Virus record (IMG/VR): IMGVR_UViG_3300045988_077974
Direction: 5' to 3' (one strand)
DNA from: a virus
DNA: 57,763 bases
The notes beneath the pieces are model-generated. The model was given only the letters and a program-made list of their open reading frames with translations, ran no database searches and was not told the origin of the DNA. Each line of letters starts with the position of its first letter. The first letter of the stretch is position 1. Below, one piece after another: positions 3,758 to 39,708 of this stretch. Position numbers and translations under genes: made by a program.

Positions 3758-4552
3758 TTAAAATTTTAAATATTTTTTTGCTACATATCCTGCTTTTCCC
3801 TTGTATTTCACTTTAGACATAGTATAAAGCGTGCCGCAAATTATCATCTTTTTTGCGTTTTTATCAAGAACAGAAACGCTACATTCTTTTAAAATAGAAC
3901 CTATTTTCTTTCCTTTTGAGTTTCTAAATGCAAGGCAGGAAGCATTTACTTTTGCTATTACAGAACTTCCATTTTTTGTTTTTTCTTTTTTTACATTTTT
4001 AGAATCATACGGAGGTCTGCCAAACCCTGCAATCCTCCCGTAATTAATTGGATATGTTTTTAAAGCAACACATCCACCGTTTGCAATCACTCCGATTTTA
4101 GAGCTTGTATTCCCCTCTATTGTATCAAATTCGTTAGACCTAACTTTTACTACAAGACCTGTATGGCAAATTCTTCCTTTTGAATTTTTAAAAAATACCT
4201 GGTCTCCTGCTTTTGGGTTTTTATGCCATGCATTTTTTGATTTGTACATGTTAGAACTGCTTATTGTATAATCATCAAAATTTCCGCAAATAAGTTTTTT
4301 GGCTGTTGAAATTCCGTAAGCTTTCTGAAAACACCAATCAACAAAACAATCACACCAATATGCAGGAAAATCCATAACAGACGGGTATATTTTGTGCATA
4401 TCTCTTCCATATTTTGTATAATTGTCCGACCCCGCACCCTCTTTTTTCTTATCAAGGACGGATGGGTCCATTTTGTATGCTGATTTTGATTTTTCAATAT
4501 AACCTATCTCTTTTTTTGCGACTTTAATTACAGTTTTTGGACAAATTGACAT
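3758..4552 (-). CDS. Endolysin: CHAP/NlpC-like hydrolase domain plus SH3b-like C-terminal domain
   Basis: Motifs YWCDCFVDWCF...GDQVFF...ICHTGLVV...FDTIEGNTS are typical of CHAP lysins. The C-terminal ~65 aa (GYVAKKYLKF) is SH3b-like. Last gene of the late operon. Confidence 0.8.
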   Translation of the reverse strand: MSICPKTVIKVAKKEIGYIEKSKSAYKMDPSVLDKKKEGAGSDNYTKYGRDMHKIYPSVMDFPAYWCDCFVDWCFQKAYGISTAKKLICGNFDDYTISSSNMYKSKNAWHKNPKAGDQVFFKNSKGRICHTGLVVKVRSNEFDTIEGNTSSKIGVIANGGCVALKTYPINYGRIAGFGRPPYDSKNVKKEKTKNGSSVIAKVNASCLAFRNSKGKKIGSILKECSVSVLDKNAKKMIICGTLYTMSKVKYKGKAGYVAKKYLKF

Positions 4553-23046: not shown

Positions 23047-24771
23047 TCAATACCTCCTAAATGGATTTTTTATTGCTTCTACTTTTGCAACTCTATTTCC
23101 TTGGGTTATTCTTAGAGCAAAGTTTGAAAAAACATCCGGCACATCATCTAATTGTTTTTTCCCGGATACAGAATATTGCTTTAATAACGACATCATCACG
23201 CCGTATGGATCGTTTGGTTTATAAAGAGAACTGTCTTTAAAAATTACATGCTGCAATATCCAGTTTGAACATTGAAAAATTCTTGCTTCTTTGTTCGTTT
23301 CCGTTGGAACGTCAGTTATATTGCATATCCACCCAACACTTTCCACACGTTTATTTACTTCCATGGCTACACGGTCTCCGCCGGCATTACGCTCAAATTC
23401 GCATTCTTGTACTTTATTATTTACAAGAACTCCTGCGGCGTTTCTATATTGTTCTTCATAATCTGCCGTGTTATCGCACACGCAATCCACGCAATAATAA
23501 TCTTCTCCGTATTTTTGTAGAACAGGCAACACAAAATAGTCAGTTCCTTTTCCTTTTGTATCACACTGACCCGTAACAATTTCCGGTTCTCCGTGCGGCA
23601 AATTAAGATACCGTCGAATTTTATCTTCCGGAAACAATAGCCCTTCTCTTTCAATCGGATCCTGTTTGTATAGGCAGCGATAAGAAATTTCATCCATAAG
23701 CAACTGTATGTCTTCAAAATCCTTTACCGTATATCCACCGAATTCAAAGTTGAAATTACTTTCTCCAGTTTTCGGGTCAATGTCCGGAACCGATATCACC
23801 TTTACCCTTTTATTTCCCTCATATGCCTGTATAATACGACCTATAACATCCCGAACGCTCCATCTCGTAGCAATGTGTATTTCCTTGCACGGATTTCCGT
23901 CTTCGTCCGGAATTTTTCTCTGTCTAGCATCTACAGCATACTTTCCCCATAATTTATCAAGATAAGTAGGGTTTAGTGCTTCTTCAATTCCCCCAATCAT
24001 ATCATCAACAAGCAAAAATTTATTTGCACGGACTTTACCAGCATTTTTACTTCCGACTGACGTACATTGTACAGACTGAAACGGCTTATACTTTCCGACA
24101 TTAAATTGTTCAAGTTTTGCGTTTGTACTTGTTACTTTAAGGTCTGGGAATATTTCATTCCAGGTATATTCATCTTCGTTCGTTACAATATCGTACATAC
24201 CGTCATAATACATTCTGGTAATATCTCCGCTATGGGAATAAAAAAGATTATATCCACTCGTATACCATCCTATAACCGCAGAATGGAAAAATTTTTCAAT
24301 CGTTGTCTTTCCTGTTCCTGGGGGTAATGAGATACACAATATGTCGTACTTATCATCAATCATCCCCTGCAACGCATCCACAAGACCAATTTTTAAAAAT
24401 TGTTTTCTTCTTGGCATATAAAAACGCTCTTTAGGCTCTCTTTTTTTCTCAATGTACCTAAAAAAACTGTCAACAATTTTATTTTGAGCTTCGATCAACA
24501 AAATCTCATAATATTTATCCAGCAATTCAAAAGAGCTTTTATTTTTGAAAACAAACTTTTCTATGCCCCACATATCAAGTCCTGTGTCACGAATGCATAC
24601 GGTTTCTATCAGCTCTTTTGCTCTAGCCGTACATTTCAGCATTAAGTCAGTTTTTTTTTCTTCCTTAGCAAGCTGGCACACATCACAGTATGTATTTATT
24701 ATGTTTTCATCAATTCCATTTCGGGTAATATACTTTTCGCAATCAGAAATCAGATTTTCTAATTCAGACAT
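23047..24771 (-). CDS. terL: Terminase large subunit
   Basis: Walker A ISLPPGTGKTT and LLVDDMIGG, plus the C-terminal nuclease half. Preferred start is the ATG at 24771 (MSELENL...) behind GAGGTG. Confidence 0.9.
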   Translation of the reverse strand: MSELENLISDCEKYITRNGIDENIINTYCDVCQLAKEEKKTDLMLKCTARAKELIETVCIRDTGLDMWGIEKFVFKNKSSFELLDKYYEILLIEAQNKIVDSFFRYIEKKREPKERFYMPRRKQFLKIGLVDALQGMIDDKYDILCISLPPGTGKTTIEKFFHSAVIGWYTSGYNLFYSHSGDITRMYYDGMYDIVTNEDEYTWNEIFPDLKVTSTNAKLEQFNVGKYKPFQSVQCTSVGSKNAGKVRANKFLLVDDMIGGIEEALNPTYLDKLWGKYAVDARQRKIPDEDGNPCKEIHIATRWSVRDVIGRIIQAYEGNKRVKVISVPDIDPKTGESNFNFEFGGYTVKDFEDIQLLMDEISYRCLYKQDPIEREGLLFPEDKIRRYLNLPHGEPEIVTGQCDTKGKGTDYFVLPVLQKYGEDYYCVDCVCDNTADYEEQYRNAAGVLVNNKVQECEFERNAGGDRVAMEVNKRVESVGWICNITDVPTETNKEARIFQCSNWILQHVIFKDSSLYKPNDPYGVMMSLLKQYSVSGKKQLDDVPDVFSNFALRITQGNRVAKVEAIKNPFRRY

Positions 24772-24777
24772 AAAGAA

Positions 24778-24807
24778 AAGCACCTCGCTTTCACAGCAAA
24801 GGTGCTT
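24778..24807 (-). promoter_or_regulatory. Hairpin sequestering the terL RBS (terminator/attenuator-like)
   Basis: AAGCACCT (24800-24807) pairs with AGGTGCTT (24778-24785) on the minus-strand RNA, followed by UUCUUU and the AUG. The GAGGUG RBS is inside the 3' arm. Confidence 0.5.
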
Positions 24808-27770: not shown

Positions 27771-28712
27771 CTAACTCATGACAAATTGTGCCAGTTTCAA
27801 AAGATACTTTTTGTTACAAAAATGAGCTATGCTATAATCTGTCTTACCATTGTGGCTTCTGGCAAAGTGCAGTCTTACCATTTCTTCCAACGGCATCGTT
27901 CCATCTTCTTTTTGTTTTGAAAAATCAAACTCCTCAAAATGATTAAACTCTTTATCGTTTATATGCGATAAAGCTGAGCATACATCAATCAGCGTTTCGC
28001 TTCTAAGTATCGGATGTATCTTCCCTGTTTTCTTCGTAAACAAATCCAGGTAAAGATTAAAAGCATTATTTACTGCTTCTTTCAAATCGCCATGACCGAT
28101 AGATACATCGCAGATATCATAAAAGCGTTTAGACATGTCCTTTTGTTTTTTCTGCAATTCTGATTTTGTGAGTTTTGTTTTTACATCATTTTCTGAAAAT
28201 GATGTATTTACCTTTCCATCATCGTTAGATGATGTATTATCCTCTATGTAGTCTTTGTATGTATTCTCTGCAGTAGTCTCTGGTATTGCTTTGCTGAGAT
28301 TGCCATGTCCATCTGTGCAATTTGCCATGTCGTGAACGCAATCTGCCATATCGTAATTGTCAACAAGACTTTGCAGCTTTTCATAGTCAATAGAATACCA
28401 CTTTGTCTTGTCAATTTTCATTTTGTTATAATTAGCTGTAATGACAATGCCTTTTTTCTCCAGACTGGTTATTGTTCTTCTGATCGTGTCTACTGACCAA
28501 AAATCAAAATCAGTTTCTTTCCATGACTGATATGTATTAAAAATCCAGTATCTTCCATCACGGAAATTTTTATCTGCCTTTTTATTAATTTCAAGCCAAT
28601 AATGTATCTGATTGAGAACAACAGCTTCATTCAGATTACCCAAAACCTTTACAAGCGTTTTTCGGATAAGCAAAACATCGTCTTTGTTTATAAACAGCTC
28701 ATTATAATTCAT
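27771..28712 (-). CDS. Winged-helix DNA-binding protein, replication-initiator/replisome-organiser-like N-terminal domain
   Basis: AVVLNQIHYWL...YWIFNTYQSWKE.DFDFWSVDTIRRTITSLEKKGIVI...DKTKWYSIDYEKL resembles a recurrent phage/plasmid wHTH family, recalled from memory. Confidence 0.45.
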   Translation of the reverse strand: MNYNELFINKDDVLLIRKTLVKVLGNLNEAVVLNQIHYWLEINKKADKNFRDGRYWIFNTYQSWKETDFDFWSVDTIRRTITSLEKKGIVITANYNKMKIDKTKWYSIDYEKLQSLVDNYDMADCVHDMANCTDGHGNLSKAIPETTAENTYKDYIEDNTSSNDDGKVNTSFSENDVKTKLTKSELQKKQKDMSKRFYDICDVSIGHGDLKEAVNNAFNLYLDLFTKKTGKIHPILRSETLIDVCSALSHINDKEFNHFEEFDFSKQKEDGTMPLEEMVRLHFARSHNGKTDYSIAHFCNKKYLLKLAQFVMS

Positions 28713-28872
28713 ATTGTTTACCTCCTACGAAACATAAACAGCACCACGCTTTATGTGCTAAACTCTACGATTAATAAAAAACAACAAACAGGCAGTCGTA
28801 GGTCTGCTTTTCGGTCTGCATCACCTAGTTTGTTGCATTTATTTACTGATAATATTCAAATATCAGCAAAAC

Positions 28873-28958
28873 GGACGGTTGCGGATTTGAACCGCAATCA
28901 CTCTTTTATGTTGGAGCAAAGGAGTGAAAACCTCCAACCGGCATTCCAGCCTCCGTCC
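28873..28958 (-). ncRNA. Atypical 86-nt tRNA-like gene (canonical T-arm and acceptor, aberrant D/anticodon region)
   Basis: Minus-strand sequence GGACGGAGGCTGGAATGCCGGTTGGAGGTTTTCACTCCTTTGCTCCAACATAAAAGAGTGATTGCGGTTCAAATCCGCAACCGTCC. Acceptor is 6 bp plus an A:A mismatch. T-arm is UGCGG/UUCAAAU/CCGCA. The anticodon register is ambiguous. Confidence 0.4.
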
Positions 28959-29012
28959 ACCAGTCTTTTATTAAGACCAGCCGGTCACAGGAATAAATCC
29001 CGTGCCGGATAA

Positions 29013-29077
29013 TGGCAAGGATGGATTCGAACCATCTTTCCGTCTGCACGAATAACGGATGCCCTGCGCACTTGCCA
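29013..29077 (-). ncRNA. Short (65-nt) tRNA-like element or tRNA pseudogene
   Basis: Sequence TGGCAAGTGCGCAGGGCATCCGTTATTCGTGCAGACGGAAAGATGGTTCGAATCCATCCTTGCCA. It has a perfect 7-bp acceptor and a GATGG/TTCGAAT/CCATC T-arm, but only 32 nt remain for the D and anticodon arms. Confidence 0.3.
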
Positions 29078-29159
29078 CTCAAAAACATACAATTATCAGT
29101 GGAGGATTTTGTATGAAATGACACCGCCTGTTACGGCTACGCTCATGCCAAAAAGCGTA

Positions 29160-29262
29160 AGTTGATTTGCACGCTTGAGCATCGTTGGATAGATGCTCAA
29201 GAAATCCCCTCCGATCCTTGTGACGGATCTTTAATCAGCTTTCCGCTAGAGGGGTATTAGAA
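29160..29262 (-). other. Unclassified structured segment: three-way-junction-like fold plus a perfect 10-bp hairpin
   Basis: Minus strand: CCCCTC...GAGGGG encloses AGC-GGAAA-GCT and GATCC-GTCACAA-GGATC. It is followed by CTTGAGCATC-TATCCAAC-GATGCTCAAG (29173-29200), then AGCGT..ACGCT and a U-run. Confidence 0.35.
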
Positions 29263-29346
29263 AGGAGATGTACAATGCAAATAGCATGTAGCATCATGGT
29301 CCCGGCAGGGGAGAAAAAGTATAATACTAAAAGCACCTGCCGGAAA

Positions 29347-29418
29347 CTAGGGTACCCGGATTCGAACCGGGAAGTCTGGGAACCAAAATCCCATGCCTTA
29401 CCATTTGGCGATACCCCA
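29347..29418 (-). tRNA. tRNA-Gln (anticodon UUG)
   Basis: Minus-strand sequence TGGGGTATCGCCAAATGGTAAGGCATGGGATTTTGGTTCCCAGACTTCCCGGTTCGAATCCGGGTACCCTA-G. Full cloverleaf drawn by hand: U1:A72, G73, anticodon loop UUUUGGU, T-loop TTCGAAT. No encoded CCA. Confidence 0.88.
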
Positions 29419-29558
29419 TCACTTACGGGCGAAGAGACCAATCAAACGCCCGTAAACTACTACGATTAAAAGGTTAATTATGACACGTTTATTTCAGACT
29501 GTTATTTATAGTTCAATTGTTATTCCTTTCCCGCTACCTAGTTGGGCATCTGATTTTT

Positions 29559-29750
29559 CTATTCTGATCCATAGACTTTACCTCCTTTTCGCTTATCTAA
29601 ATGTTCAAACTGACATTTAACCATGTCAGTGACATTACTACGTTGGCAATCAATGCCATGGCCGGCTTTAAATAATTCACATTCAAACATCCGGACGCAT
29701 TTCGTACATTCATCGTCAATCTCTTTACGACCTATTTTCATCTTTCTCAC
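29559..29750 (-). CDS. Hypothetical Cys-rich protein
   Basis: ORF track. Confidence 0.45.
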   Translation of the reverse strand: MRKMKIGRKEIDDECTKCVRMFECELFKAGHGIDCQRSNVTDMVKCQFEHLDKRKGGKVYGSE

Positions 29751-30060
29751 TCAATTCAATGTATTTATTCAAATACCAAACTGCTTTTTTTACATCCTCT
29801 AATCCATTCTTTTTACGGTGCCGGTAGATATACTTAAATGCATTGCAGATGCAGAAATCTTTTACCGCTTCTGTGCCTTGCGTTTCCTCCATCACGTCTA
29901 TGCATTGGTATTTTCCAGTTTCATAATGCGACGGATGATTTACGTTGTCATTCTTAATTCCGTTGCACAGTTCTAAAACTTTTTCTTGTTCTGCTTCCGT
30001 AAAAATATCAAGATCAATCTTGGAAGCATCAATCATTTTATCGCTCATCGGATCAAACAT
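29725..30060 (-). CDS. DUF3310-family protein
   Basis: NHPSHY...CIDVME...CICNAFKYIYRHRKKNGLEDVKKAVWYLNKYI matches the DUF3310 signature. Start at 30060 behind GGAGGA. Confidence 0.75.
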   Translation of the reverse strand: MFDPMSDKMIDASKIDLDIFTEAEQEKVLELCNGIKNDNVNHPSHYETGKYQCIDVMEETQGTEAVKDFCICNAFKYIYRHRKKNGLEDVKKAVWYLNKYIELSEKDENRS

Positions 30061-30082
30061 ATATTCCTCCATTTTTAGTTTA

Positions 30083-30241
30083 TTACTCAACTTTAACCAA
30101 AATGTAACTATGTCTCTTTATCCAATTATCAGCATTGCCATATTTACTAACTAAGTAATAGCCACGGAATAAGTGTATTATTTCTACTTCCGGAAACTTA
30201 TATGGCAAAAGAAATAATTTATTCGGTGTTGTTCTTATCAT
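30083..30241 (-). CDS. Possible 52-aa ORF (MIRTTPNKLFLLPYKFPEVEIIHLFRGYYLVSKYGNADNWIKRHSYILVKVE)
   Basis: Hand translation. GGAGTG RBS. Confidence 0.4.
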   Translation of the reverse strand: MIRTTPNKLFLLPYKFPEVEIIHLFRGYYLVSKYGNADNWIKRHSYILVKVE

Positions 30242-32404: not shown

Positions 32405-32588
32405 TATCGTTATATTATTATATAATGTTATCGTTATTTTGTCAAGCATTTTGAAGAACGGTATCTTATAGCATTATCGTTATATTATTATATAATGTTA
32501 TCGTTATACATATTGCACAATAAATAATATAATGTTATCGTTATATTTGTGTGGTTTGTCTATTGAAATCATATAACGATAGCGTTAT
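32405..32588. repeat. Iteron array: six TTATCGTTAT-type sites, including a 33-bp direct repeat and one inverted pair
   Basis: Sites at 32405-32413, 32428-32437, 32474-32483, 32498-32507 and 32535-32544, plus the inverted pair ATAACGAT/AGCGTTAT at 32573-32588. The unit tatcgttatattattatataatgttatcgttat occurs at 32405-32437 and 32475-32507. Confidence 0.9.
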
Positions 32589-32642
32589 ACTATATTCAAG
32601 ATCAAAAGAAAGGAGCCGGAAAATCCGGCAGGGTAAAGAAAA

Positions 32643-32779: not shown

Positions 32780-32932
32780 ATGACATATCAAATCAAAATC
32801 ACGGGTAGCATTTACAACGAAGATTACACCTTCACAGATCCGGCAGAGGGATCTATCAGGGAAGAGGTTGAGGCCATTCTTGAGGATATGGCAAACGGCA
32901 ATATTGACAGTCTGGAAATGTCAATCAAATAG
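32780..32932 (+). CDS. 50-aa ORF (MTYQIKITGSIYNEDYTFTDPAEGSIREEVEAILEDMANGNIDSLEMSIK)
   Basis: Hand translation. AAGGAGGG RBS 7 nt upstream. Confidence 0.55.
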   Translation: MTYQIKITGSIYNEDYTFTDPAEGSIREEVEAILEDMANGNIDSLEMSIK

Positions 32933-32976
32933 CAAGACCGGCAGGCGGTTCTGGGGTTCAATTCCCCGGCTTGCTT
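32931..32976 (+). ncRNA. tRNA-like minihelix (acceptor-like stem plus canonical T-arm, no D or anticodon arms)
   Basis: AGCAAGA-ccggcaggcggtt-CTGGGG-TTCAATT-CCCCGG-CTTGCT. Followed by GC-rich hairpins ACGCTC..GAGCGT and CACCGCGGGA..TCCCGGTG up to the RBS of 33066. Confidence 0.35.
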
Positions 32977-33065
32977 TACCCGATAGCCGAAACGCTCAAT
33001 TCCGGAGCGTCCACCGCGGGATGGTCTCCCGGTGCTGATGATGGCAGACCAGAAAGGGAAATATT

Positions 33066-33515
33066 ATGAATACAATTAAATTACAAGGAATTTACAGCAG
33101 ACAGAAAGCAATACCGGCGGCAGATCTTAAGCCGGGAATGGTTACAACTTGGAATTATGGTTATACTGAGACAGTTAAAAGCGTAGAGCCTACCAAGAGC
33201 GGTAAAAGCGTTAAATGCGTTATCATCTCAAACGAAAGCGGAACTGAATGCGTACGAACAATGAGAGCTGATAGGCTTGTAGGAGTTAAAGAGGAAGAAC
33301 CAAAAACCCCTATTGACAAAGCACTAGAAAATAGGACTAAAACATACAGCGGGATTTATAGCGATGTCGGCACAGCCTTAGAAGCTTTCAGCACTTCGGA
33401 GCTTGCGGAATATTATATACAGCGTTTCGGCGATAGTGCATTACGATATTTTCTTGAGCAGGGAATAATTTCCGCAGAAATCAACGCAGAGAAAGAGAAA
33501 AGAGAAATTTGTTAA
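33066..33515 (+). CDS. Hypothetical protein
   Basis: ORF track. Plus-strand island. Confidence 0.6.
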   Translation: MNTIKLQGIYSRQKAIPAADLKPGMVTTWNYGYTETVKSVEPTKSGKSVKCVIISNESGTECVRTMRADRLVGVKEEEPKTPIDKALENRTKTYSGIYSDVGTALEAFSTSELAEYYIQRFGDSALRYFLEQGIISAEINAEKEKREIC

Positions 33516-38583: not shown

Positions 38584-39708
38584 TCAAACAATGTTAATTG
38601 CATCCCCTACCTTGAAAAGTTCCTCTATACCATAATCATCTCCCGGTGTGACATACAGATCAAGTGTTGTTGATATTTTTTGATGCCCCATAATTCTTTG
38701 CAGTGCTTTCGGGTTCATCCCAGCTTGTATGCACCGTGTGGCGAAAGTGTGTCTTAATAGATGCATTGATATGTTTCGTAGTCCGTTTGTCTTACAAACA
38801 TAAGCTATTCTTGTCGATAAACAAAATCTAGGTATACAGCTTCCGTCTGAATTTTTAAAAACCAAATCACCATATACTATGTTTGTAGCATATCCTTTTT
38901 GAGATTTTTTTACAATCCGTAGTATCCTTAACGCTTCCGTTGTCAATGGTATATTTCTTTTTCCGGCTTTCGTTTTTGTTTCGCCTAAAAACCAGCTATT
39001 ATCATTTTTATCTTGAATCAAGCTTCTATTTACCGACAAAGTATTATTTTCATAGTCTATATCGGACCACTTCATGCCAAGAACCTCTCCAACTCTCAAT
39101 CCTGTTTGCAGTACGAATCTGAATATATATTCGTATTTTCCTCCGGTTATTGCTTCTACAAATATTTTTTGCTCATTTTTGCTCATGGCAATCCGTTCAC
39201 GTTCTTCTTTTCCTGTTAATTTAACAGTTTTTCCGCACGGATTTTCTTTTAAAACCTTATTTTGCACTGCATAATCAAACATATTTCCCATTATAGCCTT
39301 TACGATATCTTCTGTTTTATTGCTCATTCCTGCATCTGACATATCATTAAGAACTCTTTGGCACGTTAATGGTATTATTTTTTTAATTTCAACATCTCCT
39401 ATTTTTGGCTTTATATGTTTTTCGTAATTAAAAGAATAAATATATAATGTCCCCTGCTTAACAGTCCTTCTTTTCATATCAATCCATATTTCATACCATG
39501 AATTAACCGTCATATTGTCTGGTTGCTCAATATCGCTATGTTCATTATGGTATTTACTATCAGCAACCCATTTCTGGCATTCTCGAACATTACGAAACAA
39601 TTTCTGCCTACGTTTACCAAATCTATCGGTATATCTGCCAACATAGTAACCGTCCTTTCTTTGAGATATACCCTCTCCAAGCTCCTTGCCTTTCAGACTT
39701 TTTCCCAT
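38584..39708 (-). CDS. int: Tyrosine integrase
   Basis: C-terminal catalytic region ...GLRVGEVLGMKW...HLLRHTFATRCIQAGMNPKALQRIMGHQKISTTLDLYV (R..HxxR..Y). Confidence 0.92.
   Translation of the reverse strand: MGKSLKGKELGEGISQRKDGYYVGRYTDRFGKRRQKLFRNVRECQKWVADSKYHNEHSDIEQPDNMTVNSWYEIWIDMKRRTVKQGTLYIYSFNYEKHIKPKIGDVEIKKIIPLTCQRVLNDMSDAGMSNKTEDIVKAIMGNMFDYAVQNKVLKENPCGKTVKLTGKEERERIAMSKNEQKIFVEAITGGKYEYIFRFVLQTGLRVGEVLGMKWSDIDYENNTLSVNRSLIQDKNDNSWFLGETKTKAGKRNIPLTTEALRILRIVKKSQKGYATNIVYGDLVFKNSDGSCIPRFCLSTRIAYVCKTNGLRNISMHLLRHTFATRCIQAGMNPKALQRIMGHQKISTTLDLYVTPGDDYGIEELFKVGDAINIV

What the first reader, a model, noticed from the sequence alone, without database searches (positions are those of the whole stretch)
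28740..29560. 820-bp non-coding RNA island between terS and terL: one good tRNA, two aberrant tRNA-like genes and several strong hairpins
On the minus strand I could draw a complete tRNA-Gln(UUG) at 29347-29418, with U1:A72 and G73 as in bacterial tRNA-Gln.

Two further elements have perfect T-arms and acceptor stems but non-canonical cores (28873-28958, 86 nt; 29013-29077, 65 nt).

Between and around them are GC-rich hairpins:
- TTACGGGCG..CGCCCGTAA at 29421-29457;
- CCGGCAGG..CCTGCCGG at 29300-29344;
- a perfect 10-bp stem at 29173-29200;
- a three-way-junction-like fold at 29204-29258.

All track ORFs in this region look spurious. The island could be a processed polycistronic tRNA/sRNA transcript. 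The aberrant members could be decoys, pseudogenes or non-standard decoders.
Basis: partly seen in the sequence, partly recalled or inferred. Interest (0 to 1): 0.65.

Follow-up and report, generated by a model that had tools for sequence, protein, structure and literature searches.

The report
Phage tRNA and tRNA-like RNA operon
This 0.8-kb gene-free stretch of a temperate gut-bacterial (Lachnospiraceae-type) phage is a real cluster of non-coding RNA genes: one normal glutamine tRNA, a widely conserved but undescribed folded RNA, two tRNA look-alikes that cannot read codons, and a known RNA motif that ends the cluster. It hints that these phages use tRNA shapes as cutting or stabilising handles for other small RNAs.

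Summary
The island (28768-29505, minus strand) lies between a DUF3310 gene and a replication-initiator/DnaD-like gene. terL is about 4 kb away (23047-24783).

It contains:
- a canonical tRNA-Gln(UUG);
- two elements (E1 28872-28958, E2 29012-29077) with consensus T-arms and paired acceptor stems. Standard tools reject both: ARAGORN at default settings does not call them, and Rfam gives no tRNA hit at E<=10;

That junction is the core of a structured RNA with no Rfam match. It occurs in >=120 IMG/VR phage contigs and in Lachnospiraceae prophages, with strong covariation. A CU-rich tract that looks like the ribosome's anti-Shine-Dalgarno sequence usually precedes it, and tRNA-Gln usually sits just upstream.

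Relatives carry larger tRNA arrays at the same site. These include constant tRNA "shells" whose anticodon arm is replaced by unrelated inserts. Small tRNA-like elements also sit between protein genes; in this window one sits 8 nt upstream of a hammerhead ribozyme.

Best reading: one precursor transcript, cut by RNase P and RNase Z at each tRNA or tRNA-like unit. Processing is inferred, not shown. The functions of the junction RNA, E1 and E2 are unknown.

The parts
29477..29505 (-). Promoter-like site (ATAACA, 17-nt spacer, TG-n-CATAAT, an extended -10). Candidate start of the island transcript.
   Evidence: Consensus scan: 9 of 12 matches with TG before the -10 hexamer. Weak evidence only: the number of such sites in the region is no higher than in shuffles.
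29423..29455 (-). 5' leader hairpin (9-bp stem TTACGGGCG/CGCCCGTAA), ending 4 nt before tRNA-Gln.
   Evidence: (z -2.43). In L001 and relatives an A-to-G change turns an A-U pair into G.U. That keeps the pair only on the minus-strand RNA.
29347..29418 (-). Canonical tRNA-Gln(UUG) with U1-A72 and G73. No CCA is encoded; the trailer is UUU.
   Evidence: ARAGORN. Rfam RF00005, 56.2 bits. It is the first tRNA of the array in most relatives. The phage's late genes use CAA for 66% of Gln codons.
29267..29343 (-). Two hairpins downstream of tRNA-Gln: an 8-bp stem CCGGCAGG/CCTGCCGG (29302-29343) and an imperfect hairpin (29267-29295).
   Evidence: (z -3.87). Every subfamily has a hairpin at this place, but the sequences differ.
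29260..29268 (-). Single-stranded CU-rich tract UCUCCUUUC, resembling the anti-Shine-Dalgarno 3' end of 16S rRNA as I recall it.
   Evidence: A YCUCC/UCCUUY motif lies just upstream of P1 in 55 of 69 distinct homologues, against 3% of background windows. A second copy, AUCCUCCAC, is at 29099-29107.
29206..29254 (-). Conserved three-way junction: P1, UAG, P2 (GGAAA loop), CUGAUUAAAG, P3 (loop GUCACAA), P1'. No Rfam match.
   Evidence: RNAalifold: 9 of 13 pairs show compensatory changes. Covariance model R1 scores the window copy at 74.7 bits. Across 69 distinct sequences, 96.7% of cells pair against 79.5% in shuffles, with 172 double changes against 61 (0/500). No Rfam hit at E<=10.
29124..29201 (-). 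10-bp hairpin (29174-29201), single-stranded CGUGCAAAUCAAC (29161-29173), hairpin (29138-29159) and a 3-bp mini-hairpin GCCGUAACAGGCGG (29124-29137).
   Evidence: (z -3.90). BLAST finds 29253-29161 conserved in L009 and L023. By eye, related hairpin and motifs also follow the junction in L017-22, L041 and L051. Regex counts put the motifs in only a subset: 15 and 12 of 78 distinct downstream regions, and the single-stranded-motif regex missed the window's own variant. The mini-hairpin stem covaries (CCG/CGG versus CAG/CUG).
29012..29077 (-). E2: a 66-nt tRNA-like element. It has a 7-bp acceptor stem (U1-A72), a 3-bp D-like stem, a stem capped by UUCG in place of the anticodon arm, and a consensus T-arm. 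It cannot decode.
   Evidence: The D-like closing pair occurs as U-A, U.G and C-G in different relatives. The acceptor change C71-to-U keeps G2.U71. Not a tRNA by ARAGORN default or by Rfam. Its acceptor and trailer resemble the small tRNA-like elements found between genes.
28960..29008 (-). Spacer with two strong hairpins between E2 and E1.
   Evidence: z -5.01. The second hairpin has two G.U pairs that would be mismatches on the + strand (read directly from the sequence). Variation among relatives is confined to its loop.
28872..28958 (-). E1: an 87-nt tRNA-like element that folds as a five-arm (class II-like) cloverleaf. Acceptor and T stems are 6 bp each, the discriminator is G73, and the 'anticodon' loop is GUUUUCA.
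   Evidence: the minimum-energy fold is a cloverleaf, z -3.35. ARAGORN finds it only at lowered thresholds, with conflicting anticodon calls; no Rfam tRNA hit; no sequence homology to any of 247 array tRNAs beyond shuffled level.
28845..28867 (-). AU-rich trailer hairpin between E1 and int-alpA.
   Evidence: L002 and L008 carry a longer insert here instead.
28768..28835 (-). int-alpA RNA motif (RF02996): an 8-bp outer stem enclosing two hairpins, followed by U6. Likely the 3' end or terminator of the island transcript.
   Evidence: Rfam, 47.1 bits against a gathering score of 35.8. In relatives it starts 2-3 nt after the last tRNA or tRNA-like unit of the array.
32931..32976 (+). Related element outside the finding: a 46-nt mini tRNA-like element (acceptor, small hairpin, T-arm). 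It begins at the stop codon of ORF 32780-32932 and lies 8 nt upstream of a type II hammerhead ribozyme (32985-33053).
   Evidence: (Hammerhead_II, 64.2 bits). Homologous mini elements sit between protein genes in relatives.

Best explanation
The island is a minus-strand, phage-encoded non-coding RNA operon. It is a cut-down version of a tRNA and small-RNA array that sits upstream of the replication-initiator gene in a clade of temperate Lachnospiraceae-type phages.

Proposed mechanism (inferred). One precursor runs from a promoter near 29480 to the U-tract of the int-alpA motif near 28775. Host RNase P and RNase Z cut at the 5' and 3' sides of each unit that has a tRNA 'top half' (acceptor stem plus T-arm): tRNA-Gln, E2 and E1. 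This would release:
1. a functional tRNA-Gln(UUG), which helps translate the CAA-rich late genes;
2. a structured RNA of about 270 nt carrying CU-rich, anti-Shine-Dalgarno-like tracts and the conserved three-way junction;
3. the two tRNA-like RNAs themselves.

E1 and E2 are therefore read as tRNA-shaped handles for processing and stability (natural 'tRNA scaffolds'), not as decoders.

Shown: the elements, their folds, their strand, their conservation and covariation, and the array context.
Inferred: the single transcript, the cleavages, and any function of the junction RNA, E1 or E2.
For: Canonical tRNA-Gln:
-.
- Late genes use CAA for 66% of Gln codons, early genes 32%.

One transcription unit:
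- One promoter-like site upstream, and no terminator-like site on the minus strand inside the island.
- int-alpA, with a U6 tract, closes it.
- In relatives int-alpA starts 2-3 nt after the last tRNA of the array.

The RNA is on the minus strand:
- The stems contain many G.U pairs, including an invariant U.G that closes P1 (67 of 69 sequences). These would be A.C mismatches on the other strand.
- G.U-preserving substitutions occur in the leader hairpin, and G.U pairs in the spacer hairpin are read directly from the sequence.

The junction RNA is real and widespread:
- At least 120 IMG/VR stretches match its pattern.
- 11 true hits in Lachnospiraceae/Clostridia genomes and MAGs.
- The covariance model finds one copy per locus.
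- Covariation: 0 of 500 shuffles reach the observed values.
- tRNA-Gln(UUG) starts 100-200 nt upstream in 80 of 110 loci. Where it is absent, the position is taken by a tRNA-like minihelix (L051) or a long tRNA-like element (L045).

E1 and E2 keep exactly the parts that RNase P, RNase Z and the CCA-adding enzyme need (their reliance on the acceptor/T-arm half is established knowledge):
- Consensus T-loops whose only variation is a purine-to-purine change at position 57.
- Paired T and acceptor stems.
- U-rich trailers like those of the real tRNAs.
- The E2 D-like closing pair is seen as U-A, U.G and C-G. G.U-preserving changes occur in both acceptor stems.

tRNA-like shells with non-tRNA contents are a family trait:
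- 35 unique 'long' elements share a constant acceptor, D-arm and T-arm around at least 9 unrelated inserts of 30-150 nt.
- The CGGATAG...CTATCCGA shell occurs with UUA, UUG, UCA, an 8-nt loop or a long insert.
- 44-60-nt mini elements sit between protein genes.
- In the window one of these lies 8 nt from a hammerhead ribozyme, so RNA cleavage at such sites is plausibly wanted.
Against: - No expression or end-mapping data exist; processing is inferred from shape alone.
- E1 and E2 are found only in a small, ~96%-identical subgroup: 8 IMG/VR contigs plus 3 metagenome contigs, one of which is the same contig as L008. Covariation support therefore rests on a handful of substitutions.
- Some haplotypes carry mismatches: E1 acceptor A4xG69 in L001/L006, the E2 T-stem in L003, and C.A in the E2 D-like stem in L008.
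- L005 and L177 have a 73-nt deletion that replaces E2's 5' strand and removes the second CU-rich tract. Those parts are therefore dispensable or already decaying.
- The promoter match is weak: such sites are no more frequent here than in shuffles.
- The CU-rich tract reads as GAAAGGAGG plus a nearby start codon on the opposite strand. The resulting ORFs differ in frame and length, so they are not a conserved protein.
Confidence: 0.5

Rival explanations
1. E1 and E2 are decaying tRNA pseudogenes left over from a formerly larger tRNA array. Only tRNA-Gln, and perhaps the junction RNA and int-alpA, are functional. The remaining hairpins are incidental or simply stabilise the transcript.
For: - The window's subgroup has the smallest array: one canonical tRNA, against 3-7 in relatives.
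- Mismatches occur in some haplotypes, and a 73-nt deletion through E2 is seen in two independent assemblies.
- Arrays in this clade turn over quickly.
- E1 and E2 have no homologues outside the subgroup.
Against: - Decay should hit all parts equally. Here the T-loop consensus and the acceptor and T stems are kept, while only the 'bottom half' is un-tRNA-like.
- Substitutions preserve pairing: U-A/U.G/C-G in the E2 D-like stem and G.U in both acceptor stems. T-loop changes are purine-to-purine.
- E1 and E2 show no residual sequence homology to any of 247 array tRNAs.
- The same 'intact shell, foreign interior' design recurs in many unrelated sequences.
Confidence: 0.22
2. E1, E2 and the related shells with altered anticodon arms are anti-defence tRNA mimics. 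They would act as decoys or uncleavable competitors for host tRNA-targeting nucleases (anticodon nucleases of the PrrC, RloC, PARIS or retron type). Alternatively they would sequester other tRNA-binding factors.
For: - The shell stays constant while the anticodon arm is the variable part. One shell is seen with UUA, UUG, UCA, an 8-nt loop or a long insert.
- Tandem pairs of a canonical tRNA and a loop-mutated copy occur, for example Asn GUU next to a copy with loop CUAUUAG.
- That phage tRNAs can escape anticodon nucleases through loop changes is prior knowledge recalled from memory, not tested here.
Against: - No defence or counter-defence gene was linked to the island in this analysis.
- Inserts of 30-150 nt, and elements placed between genes inside mRNAs, are hard to read as anticodon-nuclease decoys.
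- Nothing here tests binding or cleavage.
Confidence: 0.15
3. E1 (and possibly E2) are unusual but working decoders. For example, E1 could be a class II-shaped tRNA with anticodon UUU and SerRS-like acceptor features (G1-C72, G2-C71, A3-U70, G73, long variable arm), or a frameshift or suppressor tRNA.
For: - E1 folds into a complete cloverleaf with a 7-nt loop containing U33.
- Relatives do carry suppressor tRNAs (UUA, UCA) and units with 8-nt loops.
Against: - Rfam's tRNA model gives no hit at E<=10 even on a 224-nt search.
- ARAGORN needs a lowered threshold and gives conflicting anticodons: Thr GGU, or Gln with a 12-nt 'intron'.
- E1's loop has G32 and C37.
- E2 has no 7-nt anticodon loop.
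- The window's long ORFs show no in-frame stops that would call for suppression.
Confidence: 0.05
4. The region works at the DNA level, as a replication origin next to the initiator gene or as an attP or tRNA-fragment integration scar, and not as RNA.
For: - It lies directly upstream of the replication-initiator gene.
- int-alpA is named for its association with integrase and alpA genes.
- Partial tRNA genes commonly mark integration sites (PMC9897764, abstract).
Against: - No iterons in the island: the only repeat family is the T-loop, and the short spaced repeats lie inside the initiator gene.
- The integrase is about 9 kb away.
- E1 and E2 contain both halves of the acceptor stem, which an att fragment does not need.
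- G.U-specific pairing and covariation point to RNA on one strand.
Confidence: 0.04

Closest known systems
Phage tRNA gene clusters with embedded stable RNAs (phage T4 tRNA region with 'species 1' and 'species 2' RNAs; recalled from memory, not checked here)
   Same: A phage-encoded polycistronic cluster in which real tRNAs are co-transcribed with small stable RNAs of unknown function. Those RNAs have tRNA-like ends and depend on the host's tRNA-processing enzymes.
   Different: - No sequence relationship was tested or is expected.
- Here only one canonical tRNA remains.
- The companions include a covarying three-way junction with a CU-rich tract, tRNA-like shells with replaced anticodon arms, and an int-alpA terminal motif.
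- The host is a gut Lachnospiraceae-type bacterium.
int-alpA RNA motif (Rfam RF02996)
   Same: The element at 28768-28835 passes the family's gathering score and has the model's architecture: an outer stem, two inner hairpins and a 3' U-run.
   Different: - Here and in 30 or more relatives it sits at the 3' end of a tRNA array and upstream of a replication-initiator gene, not next to an integrase or alpA gene. The integrase is 9 kb away.
- The upstream three-way junction has a similar layout (P1-UAG-P2-A-rich linker-P3-P1'), but neither model hits the other element.
Theta (minimal HDV-like) ribozymes next to tRNAs in gut phages (Kienbeck et al. 2024, PMC10879173)
   Same: Gut-phage tRNA arrays with structured RNAs between tRNAs, few encoded CCA tails and suppressor tRNAs in relatives. 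The shared idea is that small RNA devices help mature or punctuate phage tRNA transcripts.
   Different: - No HDV-like, hammerhead or other ribozyme family hits inside the island at E<=10.
- The junction starts 93 nt (window) or 30-90 nt (relatives) after the tRNA, not within 5 nt.
- The only ribozyme in the window is a type II hammerhead next to a mini tRNA-like element on the other strand.
tRNA-like processing handles: MALAT1-mascRNA, gammaherpesvirus-68 tRNA-miRNA (TMER) transcripts, mitochondrial 'tRNA punctuation', engineered tRNA scaffolds (recalled knowledge)
   Same: A tRNA-shaped module with no decoding role recruits RNase P or RNase Z to define the ends of neighbouring RNAs, or protects an inserted RNA. 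This is what the island's layout, the mini elements between genes and the shells with inserts suggest.
   Different: - Those systems are eukaryotic, viral-eukaryotic or synthetic.
- I found no description of a bacteriophage equivalent in the literature searches run here.
- Cleavage has not been shown for the phage elements.
Streptococcus sRNA SpF41 (Rfam RF02435)
   Same: Its consensus is also an acceptor-like stem enclosing a hairpin and a GGUUCGAAUCC T-arm, followed by a terminator. E2 aligns weakly to it.
   Different: The score is 17.8 bits against a gathering score of 52 (E = 1.7), so E2 is not a member.

Membership tests
tRNA (RF00005) - tRNA-Gln 29347-29418 | Covariance-model score above gathering, a full cloverleaf, and a 7-nt anticodon loop with U33 and a purine at 37 | tested here: met
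   56.2 bits against 29. ARAGORN draws a cloverleaf with anticodon UUG, U1-A72 and G73.
tRNA (RF00005) - E1 and E2 | Covariance-model score above gathering (29 bits) | tested here: not met
   No tRNA hit at E<=10 in 1.5-kb and 224-nt searches. ARAGORN at default settings does not call either.
tRNA (RF00005) - E1 and E2 | Acceptor stem plus a T-arm with a T-loop consensus (the 'top half') | tested here: met
   E2 has a 7-bp acceptor and a 5-bp T-stem with GGUUCGAAUCC. E1 has 6 + 6 bp with GGUUCAAAUCC.
tRNA (RF00005) - E1 and E2 | Canonical anticodon arm (5-bp stem, 7-nt loop, Y32-U33-NNN-R37) | tested here: not met
   E2 has a 6-bp stem with a 9-nt loop, or by hand a UUCG-capped stem with a CAG bulge. 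E1 has a 4-bp stem with loop GUUUUCA (G32, C37).
int-alpA RNA (RF02996) | Score above the curated gathering threshold over the full model | tested here: met
   47.1 bits against 35.8, model positions 1-71 of 71. 20 further matches in 16 related loci.
int-alpA RNA (RF02996) | Genomic association with integrase or alpA genes (the origin of the family name) | tested here: not met
   The downstream gene is a replication initiator / DnaD-like loader. The integrase is at 38584-39708.
tmRNA | tRNA-like domain plus a tag reading frame, as detected by ARAGORN or RF00023 | tested here: not met
   ARAGORN finds no tmRNA. No RF00023 hit in the island.
Self-cleaving ribozymes (HDV-like/theta, hammerhead, twister, pistol, hatchet) inside the island | Match to an Rfam ribozyme model. 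For theta ribozymes, the cleavage site lies within 5 nt of a tRNA 3' end. | tested here: not met
   No ribozyme family at E<=10 in 28400-29900. The theta RNArobo descriptor is not given in the paper's text, so it could not be run.
Bacterial Y-RNA-like (YrlA) tRNA mimics | Rfam model match, with the tRNA-like domain closed by a loop and the ends in a Ro-binding stem | tested here: not met
   No such hit. In E1 and E2 the 5' and 3' ends lie in the acceptor stem, which is the opposite topology.
tRNA-gene fragment / attP scar | Only the 3' part of a tRNA gene, lying next to an integrase | tested here: not met
   Both acceptor strands are present. The integrase is about 9 kb away.
RNase P / RNase Z substrate ('tRNA punctuation') | Cleavage at the 5' and 3' borders of the tRNA-like unit | not testable with these tools
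   Only the structural prerequisites were checked: a 12-bp acceptor/T-arm stack, no encoded CCA, and U-rich trailers.

The most novel reading that the evidence does not exclude
These gut phages encode a previously undescribed toolkit of 'tRNA-shell' RNAs. Acceptor, D and T arms are kept, and the anticodon arm is swapped for unrelated inserts, from a UUCG hairpin (E2) to 150-nt cargos.

Alongside it they encode a new, widespread three-way-junction RNA flanked by mimics of the ribosome's anti-Shine-Dalgarno sequence.

Together these RNAs would be matured by the host tRNA machinery and act in trans. They might act as decoys for tRNA-targeting defences, as modulators of translation initiation, or both.
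Probability: 0.3. Interest if true: 0.85.

Novelty: new variant of a known kind. Interest (0 to 1): 0.62.

Why it matters
Phage tRNA clusters are usually read as codon-usage helpers. This locus suggests that in one clade of temperate Lachnospiraceae-type gut phages the 'tRNA array' is really a factory for non-coding RNAs.

- **A conserved junction RNA.** The three-way junction covaries strongly and has no Rfam match. It is tied to tRNA-Gln and to a 16S-tail-like CU tract, and it occurs in more than 120 phage contigs and in prophages of cultured Lachnospiraceae.
- **tRNA shapes reused as cassettes.** Acceptor and T-arm modules carry non-tRNA inserts and also sit between protein genes, in one case next to a hammerhead ribozyme.

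If the processing model is right, it would be a bacterial-virus counterpart of the tRNA-like processing handles known in eukaryotes and herpesviruses, and a natural precedent for engineered tRNA scaffolds.

The junction RNA is a well-defined new target for structure probing and for a search for ligands or binding partners. A cultured host carrying a related prophage (Lachnospira intestinalis CLA-AA-H89B) makes this testable.

Tried and rejected
1. **terS/terL context.** Rejected by PHROG and Pfam scans.
2. **Protein coding in the island.** The five ORFs have no PHROG hit, and single-base indels in close relatives break their frames.
3. **An ORF antisense to tRNA-Gln, driven by GAAAGGAGG on the + strand.** A start codon follows in every subfamily. 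However, the ORFs are 3 to 64 codons long and cross the tRNA in three different frames, so they are not a conserved protein. The stems' G.U pairs place the RNA on the tRNA strand.
4. **Pseudoknot between the CU tract and the P2 loop.** No covariation: the P2 loops change (GGAAA, GAGA, AAGA, long U-rich) while the CU tract stays.
5. **Trans targets of the CU tract or the CGUGCAAAUCAAC tract within the window.** Only chance-level matches.
6. **E1 or E2 as recent copies of array tRNAs.** The best global alignment scores are within or near the shuffled range, and what similarity exists is T-loop only.
7. **Homologues in cultured phage records.** Only tRNA-Gln matches in 50,697 GenBank phage records.
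8. **Rfam identity for the long tRNA-like elements.** None at E<=5.
9. **Replication origin.** No iterons in the island.
10. **More E1/E2 haplotypes.** The metagenome scan gave only 3 contigs. These were useful but too few for statistics.
11. **Literature on int-alpA and on phage tRNA-like handles.** Full-text searches found no description of int-alpA beyond listings, and no description of phage tRNA-like shells.
12. **Downstream motifs of the junction RNA.** They are conserved only in a subset: 15 and 12 of 78 distinct sequences. The regex for the single-stranded motif did not match the window's own variant.


Full report
**What is there**

The window is a mostly minus-strand phage genome. 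It encodes a large terminase (23047-24783), an endolysin, an anti-repressor and an integrase (38584-39708).

The finding's region is not between terS and terL. On the minus strand it follows a DUF3310 gene (29725-30090) and a small Cys-rich ORF (29559-29750). It precedes a gene (27771-28712) that matches DnaD-like helicase-loader and replication-initiation PHROGs.

- ARAGORN and Rfam both call tRNA-Gln(UUG) at 29347-29418(-), with U1-A72 and G73.
- The four hairpins and junctions are real.
- The 721-nt island folds far better than shuffles (z -6.24).
- The T-loop word GGTTCRANTCC occurs three times in the island and once more at 32955(+), against 0.21 expected in the whole window.

**The two aberrant elements**

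E2 (29012-29077) folds alone into a four-arm structure:
- a perfect 7-bp acceptor stem;
- a 3-bp D-like stem;
- a stem that can be capped by UUCG where the anticodon arm should be;
- a consensus T-arm.

E1 (28872-28958) folds alone into a five-arm, class II-like cloverleaf (z -3.35). Its acceptor and T stems are 6 bp each, and its 4-bp 'anticodon' stem carries the loop GUUUUCA.

Neither is a tRNA by standard criteria.
- ARAGORN finds them only at lowered thresholds or in mitochondrial mode, and its anticodon calls conflict.
- Rfam's tRNA model gives no hit at E<=10, even when only 224 nt are searched.
- They show no sequence homology, beyond the T-loop, to any of 247 distinct tRNAs from related arrays.

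Rfam places an int-alpA motif (RF02996) at 28768-28835(-), scoring 47.1 bits against a gathering score of 35.8. It is an 8-bp outer stem enclosing two hairpins, followed by U6.

**Relatives**

The initiator protein recovers 38 IMG/VR loci.
- Eight are ~96% identical and carry the same island.
- The others, at 43-54% protein identity, mostly carry larger tRNA arrays at the same place.

These arrays almost always begin with tRNA-Gln(UUG). They contain Ser, Tyr, Asn, Val, Cys and Leu tRNAs, ochre-suppressor (UUA) units and units with 8-nt loops. They always end with int-alpA, which starts 2-3 nt after the last tRNA.

The window's island is therefore a reduced member of a conserved 'array upstream of the initiator' locus.

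Hosts are Lachnospiraceae or other Clostridia. The junction pattern gives 11 true hits in GTDB genomes, including an isolate of Lachnospira intestinalis.

**The three-way junction is the most conserved part**

Downstream of tRNA-Gln, every subfamily has the same order of parts:
1. a hairpin;
2. a single-stranded CU-rich tract (consensus YCCUCCUUUC, which I recall as the 3' tail of 16S rRNA);
3. a three-way junction: P1, UAG, P2 with a GNRA-like loop, CUG(A)UUAA(A)G, P3 with loop GUCACAA, P1'.

Evidence that the junction is a real, selected RNA structure:
- RNAalifold finds compensatory changes in 9 of 13 pairs.
- A covariance model finds exactly one copy per locus in 83 of 93 sources. It finds none in the array-less loci or in the chance pattern hits.
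- Across 69 distinct sequences, 96.7% of cells pair, against 79.5% after shuffling and 25-47% after sliding the partners. There are 172 double-change cells against 61. No shuffle of 500 reaches these values.
- Frequent G.U pairs, including an invariant U.G closing P1, fix the strand as that of the tRNAs.

Further observations:
- The CU-rich motif is present in 55 of 69 distinct sequences, against 3% of background windows.
- tRNA-Gln(UUG) starts 100-200 nt upstream in 80 of 110 loci.
- Rfam 15 has nothing matching the element at E<=10, and 50,697 GenBank phage records contain no blastn match to it.
- Its layout resembles int-alpA, but neither model detects the other element.

**Evidence on what E1 and E2 are**

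Sequence-level homologues exist only in the window's subgroup. Within it the variation is informative but sparse.
- The closing pair of E2's D-like stem occurs as U-A, U.G and C-G, with C.A once.
- E2's C71-to-U change keeps G2.U71, and E1's A3-to-G change keeps a pair with U70.
- Both T-loops vary only G-to-A at position 57.
- Against this, L001/L006 have an A4xG69 mismatch in E1 and L003 has a T-stem mismatch in E2.
- L005 and L177 share a 73-nt deletion between two direct repeats. It gives E2 a new 5' strand that pairs at 6 of 7 positions.

The wider clade gives the stronger argument. An intact tRNA 'top half' with a non-tRNA interior is a recurring design.

Across 158 loci:
- 146 perfect T-arms lie outside ARAGORN-called tRNAs.
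- 35 distinct 'long' elements share a constant shell around at least nine unrelated inserts of 30-150 nt. The shell is UGAUGUG, UG, GCGGAAUGGGUAAACGC, the insert, GUGUGGUUCAAAUCCACAC, CACAUCA. One insert (L017) shares sequence with E2's inner hairpin.
- The shell CGGATAG...CTATCCGA occurs with anticodon arms UUA, UUG, UCA, with an 8-nt loop, or with a long insert giving a 139-nt element.
- Mini elements of 44-60 nt sit between protein-coding genes on the coding strand, followed by a hairpin and the next ribosome-binding site. Their layout is GGCAAG, small hairpin, CCGGGGUUCGAUUCCCCGG, CUUGCUU.

E2's acceptor (GGCAAG/CUUGCC) and its trailer resemble these mini elements.

The window has one such mini element at 32931-32976(+). 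It starts at a stop codon and lies 8 nt upstream of a type II hammerhead ribozyme (64.2 bits), which is followed by the next gene's ribosome-binding site.

**Mechanism proposed**

Shown:
- the elements, their folds, their strand, and their conservation and covariation;
- the array context, and the absence of a terminator-like site on the minus strand inside the island;
- a terminal branched stem plus U-tract;
- a CAA bias in late genes: 66% of Gln codons, against 32% in early genes.

Inferred:
- A single precursor runs from the extended -10 promoter-like site at 29505-29477 to the int-alpA U-tract.
- RNase P and RNase Z cut at tRNA-Gln, E2 and E1. All three lack an encoded CCA and have U-rich trailers.
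- This releases tRNA-Gln, a junction RNA of about 270 nt, and the tRNA-like RNAs.

That RNase P, RNase Z and the CCA-adding enzyme recognise mainly the acceptor/T-arm half is established knowledge. That they act here is untested. The function of the junction RNA is unknown. Its CU tracts suggest pairing with Shine-Dalgarno sequences or mimicry of the 16S tail, but I found no specific target in the window.

**Rivals**

- Pseudogenes, confidence about 0.22. The small array, the mismatches and the deletion favour this. The selective preservation of the top half and the recurrence of the design argue against it.
- Anti-defence decoys, about 0.15. The variable anticodon arm fits. The long inserts and the elements inside mRNAs do not fit well.
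- Odd decoders, about 0.05.
- A DNA-level origin or att site, about 0.04. There are no iterons and the integrase is 9 kb away.

**Comparison with known systems**

By construction this is a phage tRNA cluster with embedded stable RNAs, as in T4 (recalled from memory). Its terminal element is a member of int-alpA by score but not by genomic context. It shares the theme of theta-ribozyme/tRNA arrays in gut phages (PMC10879173), but no ribozyme family matches inside the island.

The proposed use of tRNA shapes as processing or stability handles is known from mascRNA, herpesviral TMERs, mitochondrial punctuation and engineered tRNA scaffolds (recalled knowledge). My literature searches found no phage description.

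I rate it a new variant of a known kind. It contains one clearly new and well-supported RNA motif.

**Verdict**

Interest is moderately high, because the junction RNA and the tRNA-shell design are widespread, undescribed and directly testable. All functional claims remain inference.

Noticed in passing
window 32931-33053 (+): A 46-nt mini tRNA-like element (acceptor, small hairpin, T-arm) begins at the stop codon of ORF 32780-32932. A type II hammerhead ribozyme (32985-33053, 64.2 bits) follows 8 nt later, then the ribosome-binding site of ORF 33066-33515. Close relatives have a plain hairpin where the hammerhead sits.
   Followed up: partly
window 32405-32594: Five copies of a 24-nt repeat (ATTATATAATGTTATCGTTAT...), including an exact 33-nt duplicate. 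They lie in the divergent intergenic region between the leftward and rightward genes, and look like an operator/promoter switch region.
   Followed up: no
window 29534-29572 (-): A 12-codon micro-ORF with a strong ribosome-binding site (AAGGAGG): MDQNRKIRCPTR*. In L001 it reads MRQNRNIRCPTC*, with a synonymous AGA-to-CGT change, which suggests a conserved micro-peptide or leader just upstream of the island's promoter-like site.
   Followed up: no
related loci L009-L158 (e.g. L017 3441-3667; L058; L026): A family of 'long' tRNA-like elements. The acceptor, D-arm and T-arm shell is constant, and inserts of 30-150 nt replace the anticodon arm. There are 35 unique sequences with at least 9 unrelated inserts, and no Rfam match.
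   Followed up: partly
related loci (e.g. L012, L014, L017-21 position ~3813-3884; L115; L025/L026/L030): The same tRNA body (CGGATAG...CTATCCGA), sitting just before int-alpA, carries anticodon UUA (ochre suppressor), UUG (Gln) or UCA (opal) in different phages. In others it has an 8-nt loop CUGCGGUA or a long insert. Many arrays also pair a canonical tRNA-Asn(GUU) with a copy whose loop is CUAUUAG.
   Followed up: partly
L005 and L177 (equivalent to window ~29064-29137): A 73-nt deletion between the direct repeats TGGCATGAGCGTAG and TGGCAAGTGCGCAG. It removes the mini-hairpin, the second CU-rich tract and E2's original 5' strand. It is seen in two independent assemblies.
   Followed up: yes
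window 27841-28243 (inside the initiator gene 27771-28712): Several short direct repeats spaced about 30 nt apart (27841/27872, 28141/28173, 28199/28229). They could be origin iterons inside the initiator gene, as in lambda O.
   Followed up: no
L007 2147-2212: A second int-alpA match (38.4 bits) about 1.8 kb upstream of the initiator gene in one close relative. The window has no counterpart above the gathering score.
   Followed up: no
window, long ORFs: Gln codon choice differs sharply between modules. CAA is 66% of Gln codons in structural and late genes (<25 kb) and 32% in the sampled genes above 25 kb (replication initiator, nuclease, integrase and others). This fits a late-gene role for the phage tRNA-Gln(UUG).
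   Followed up: partly
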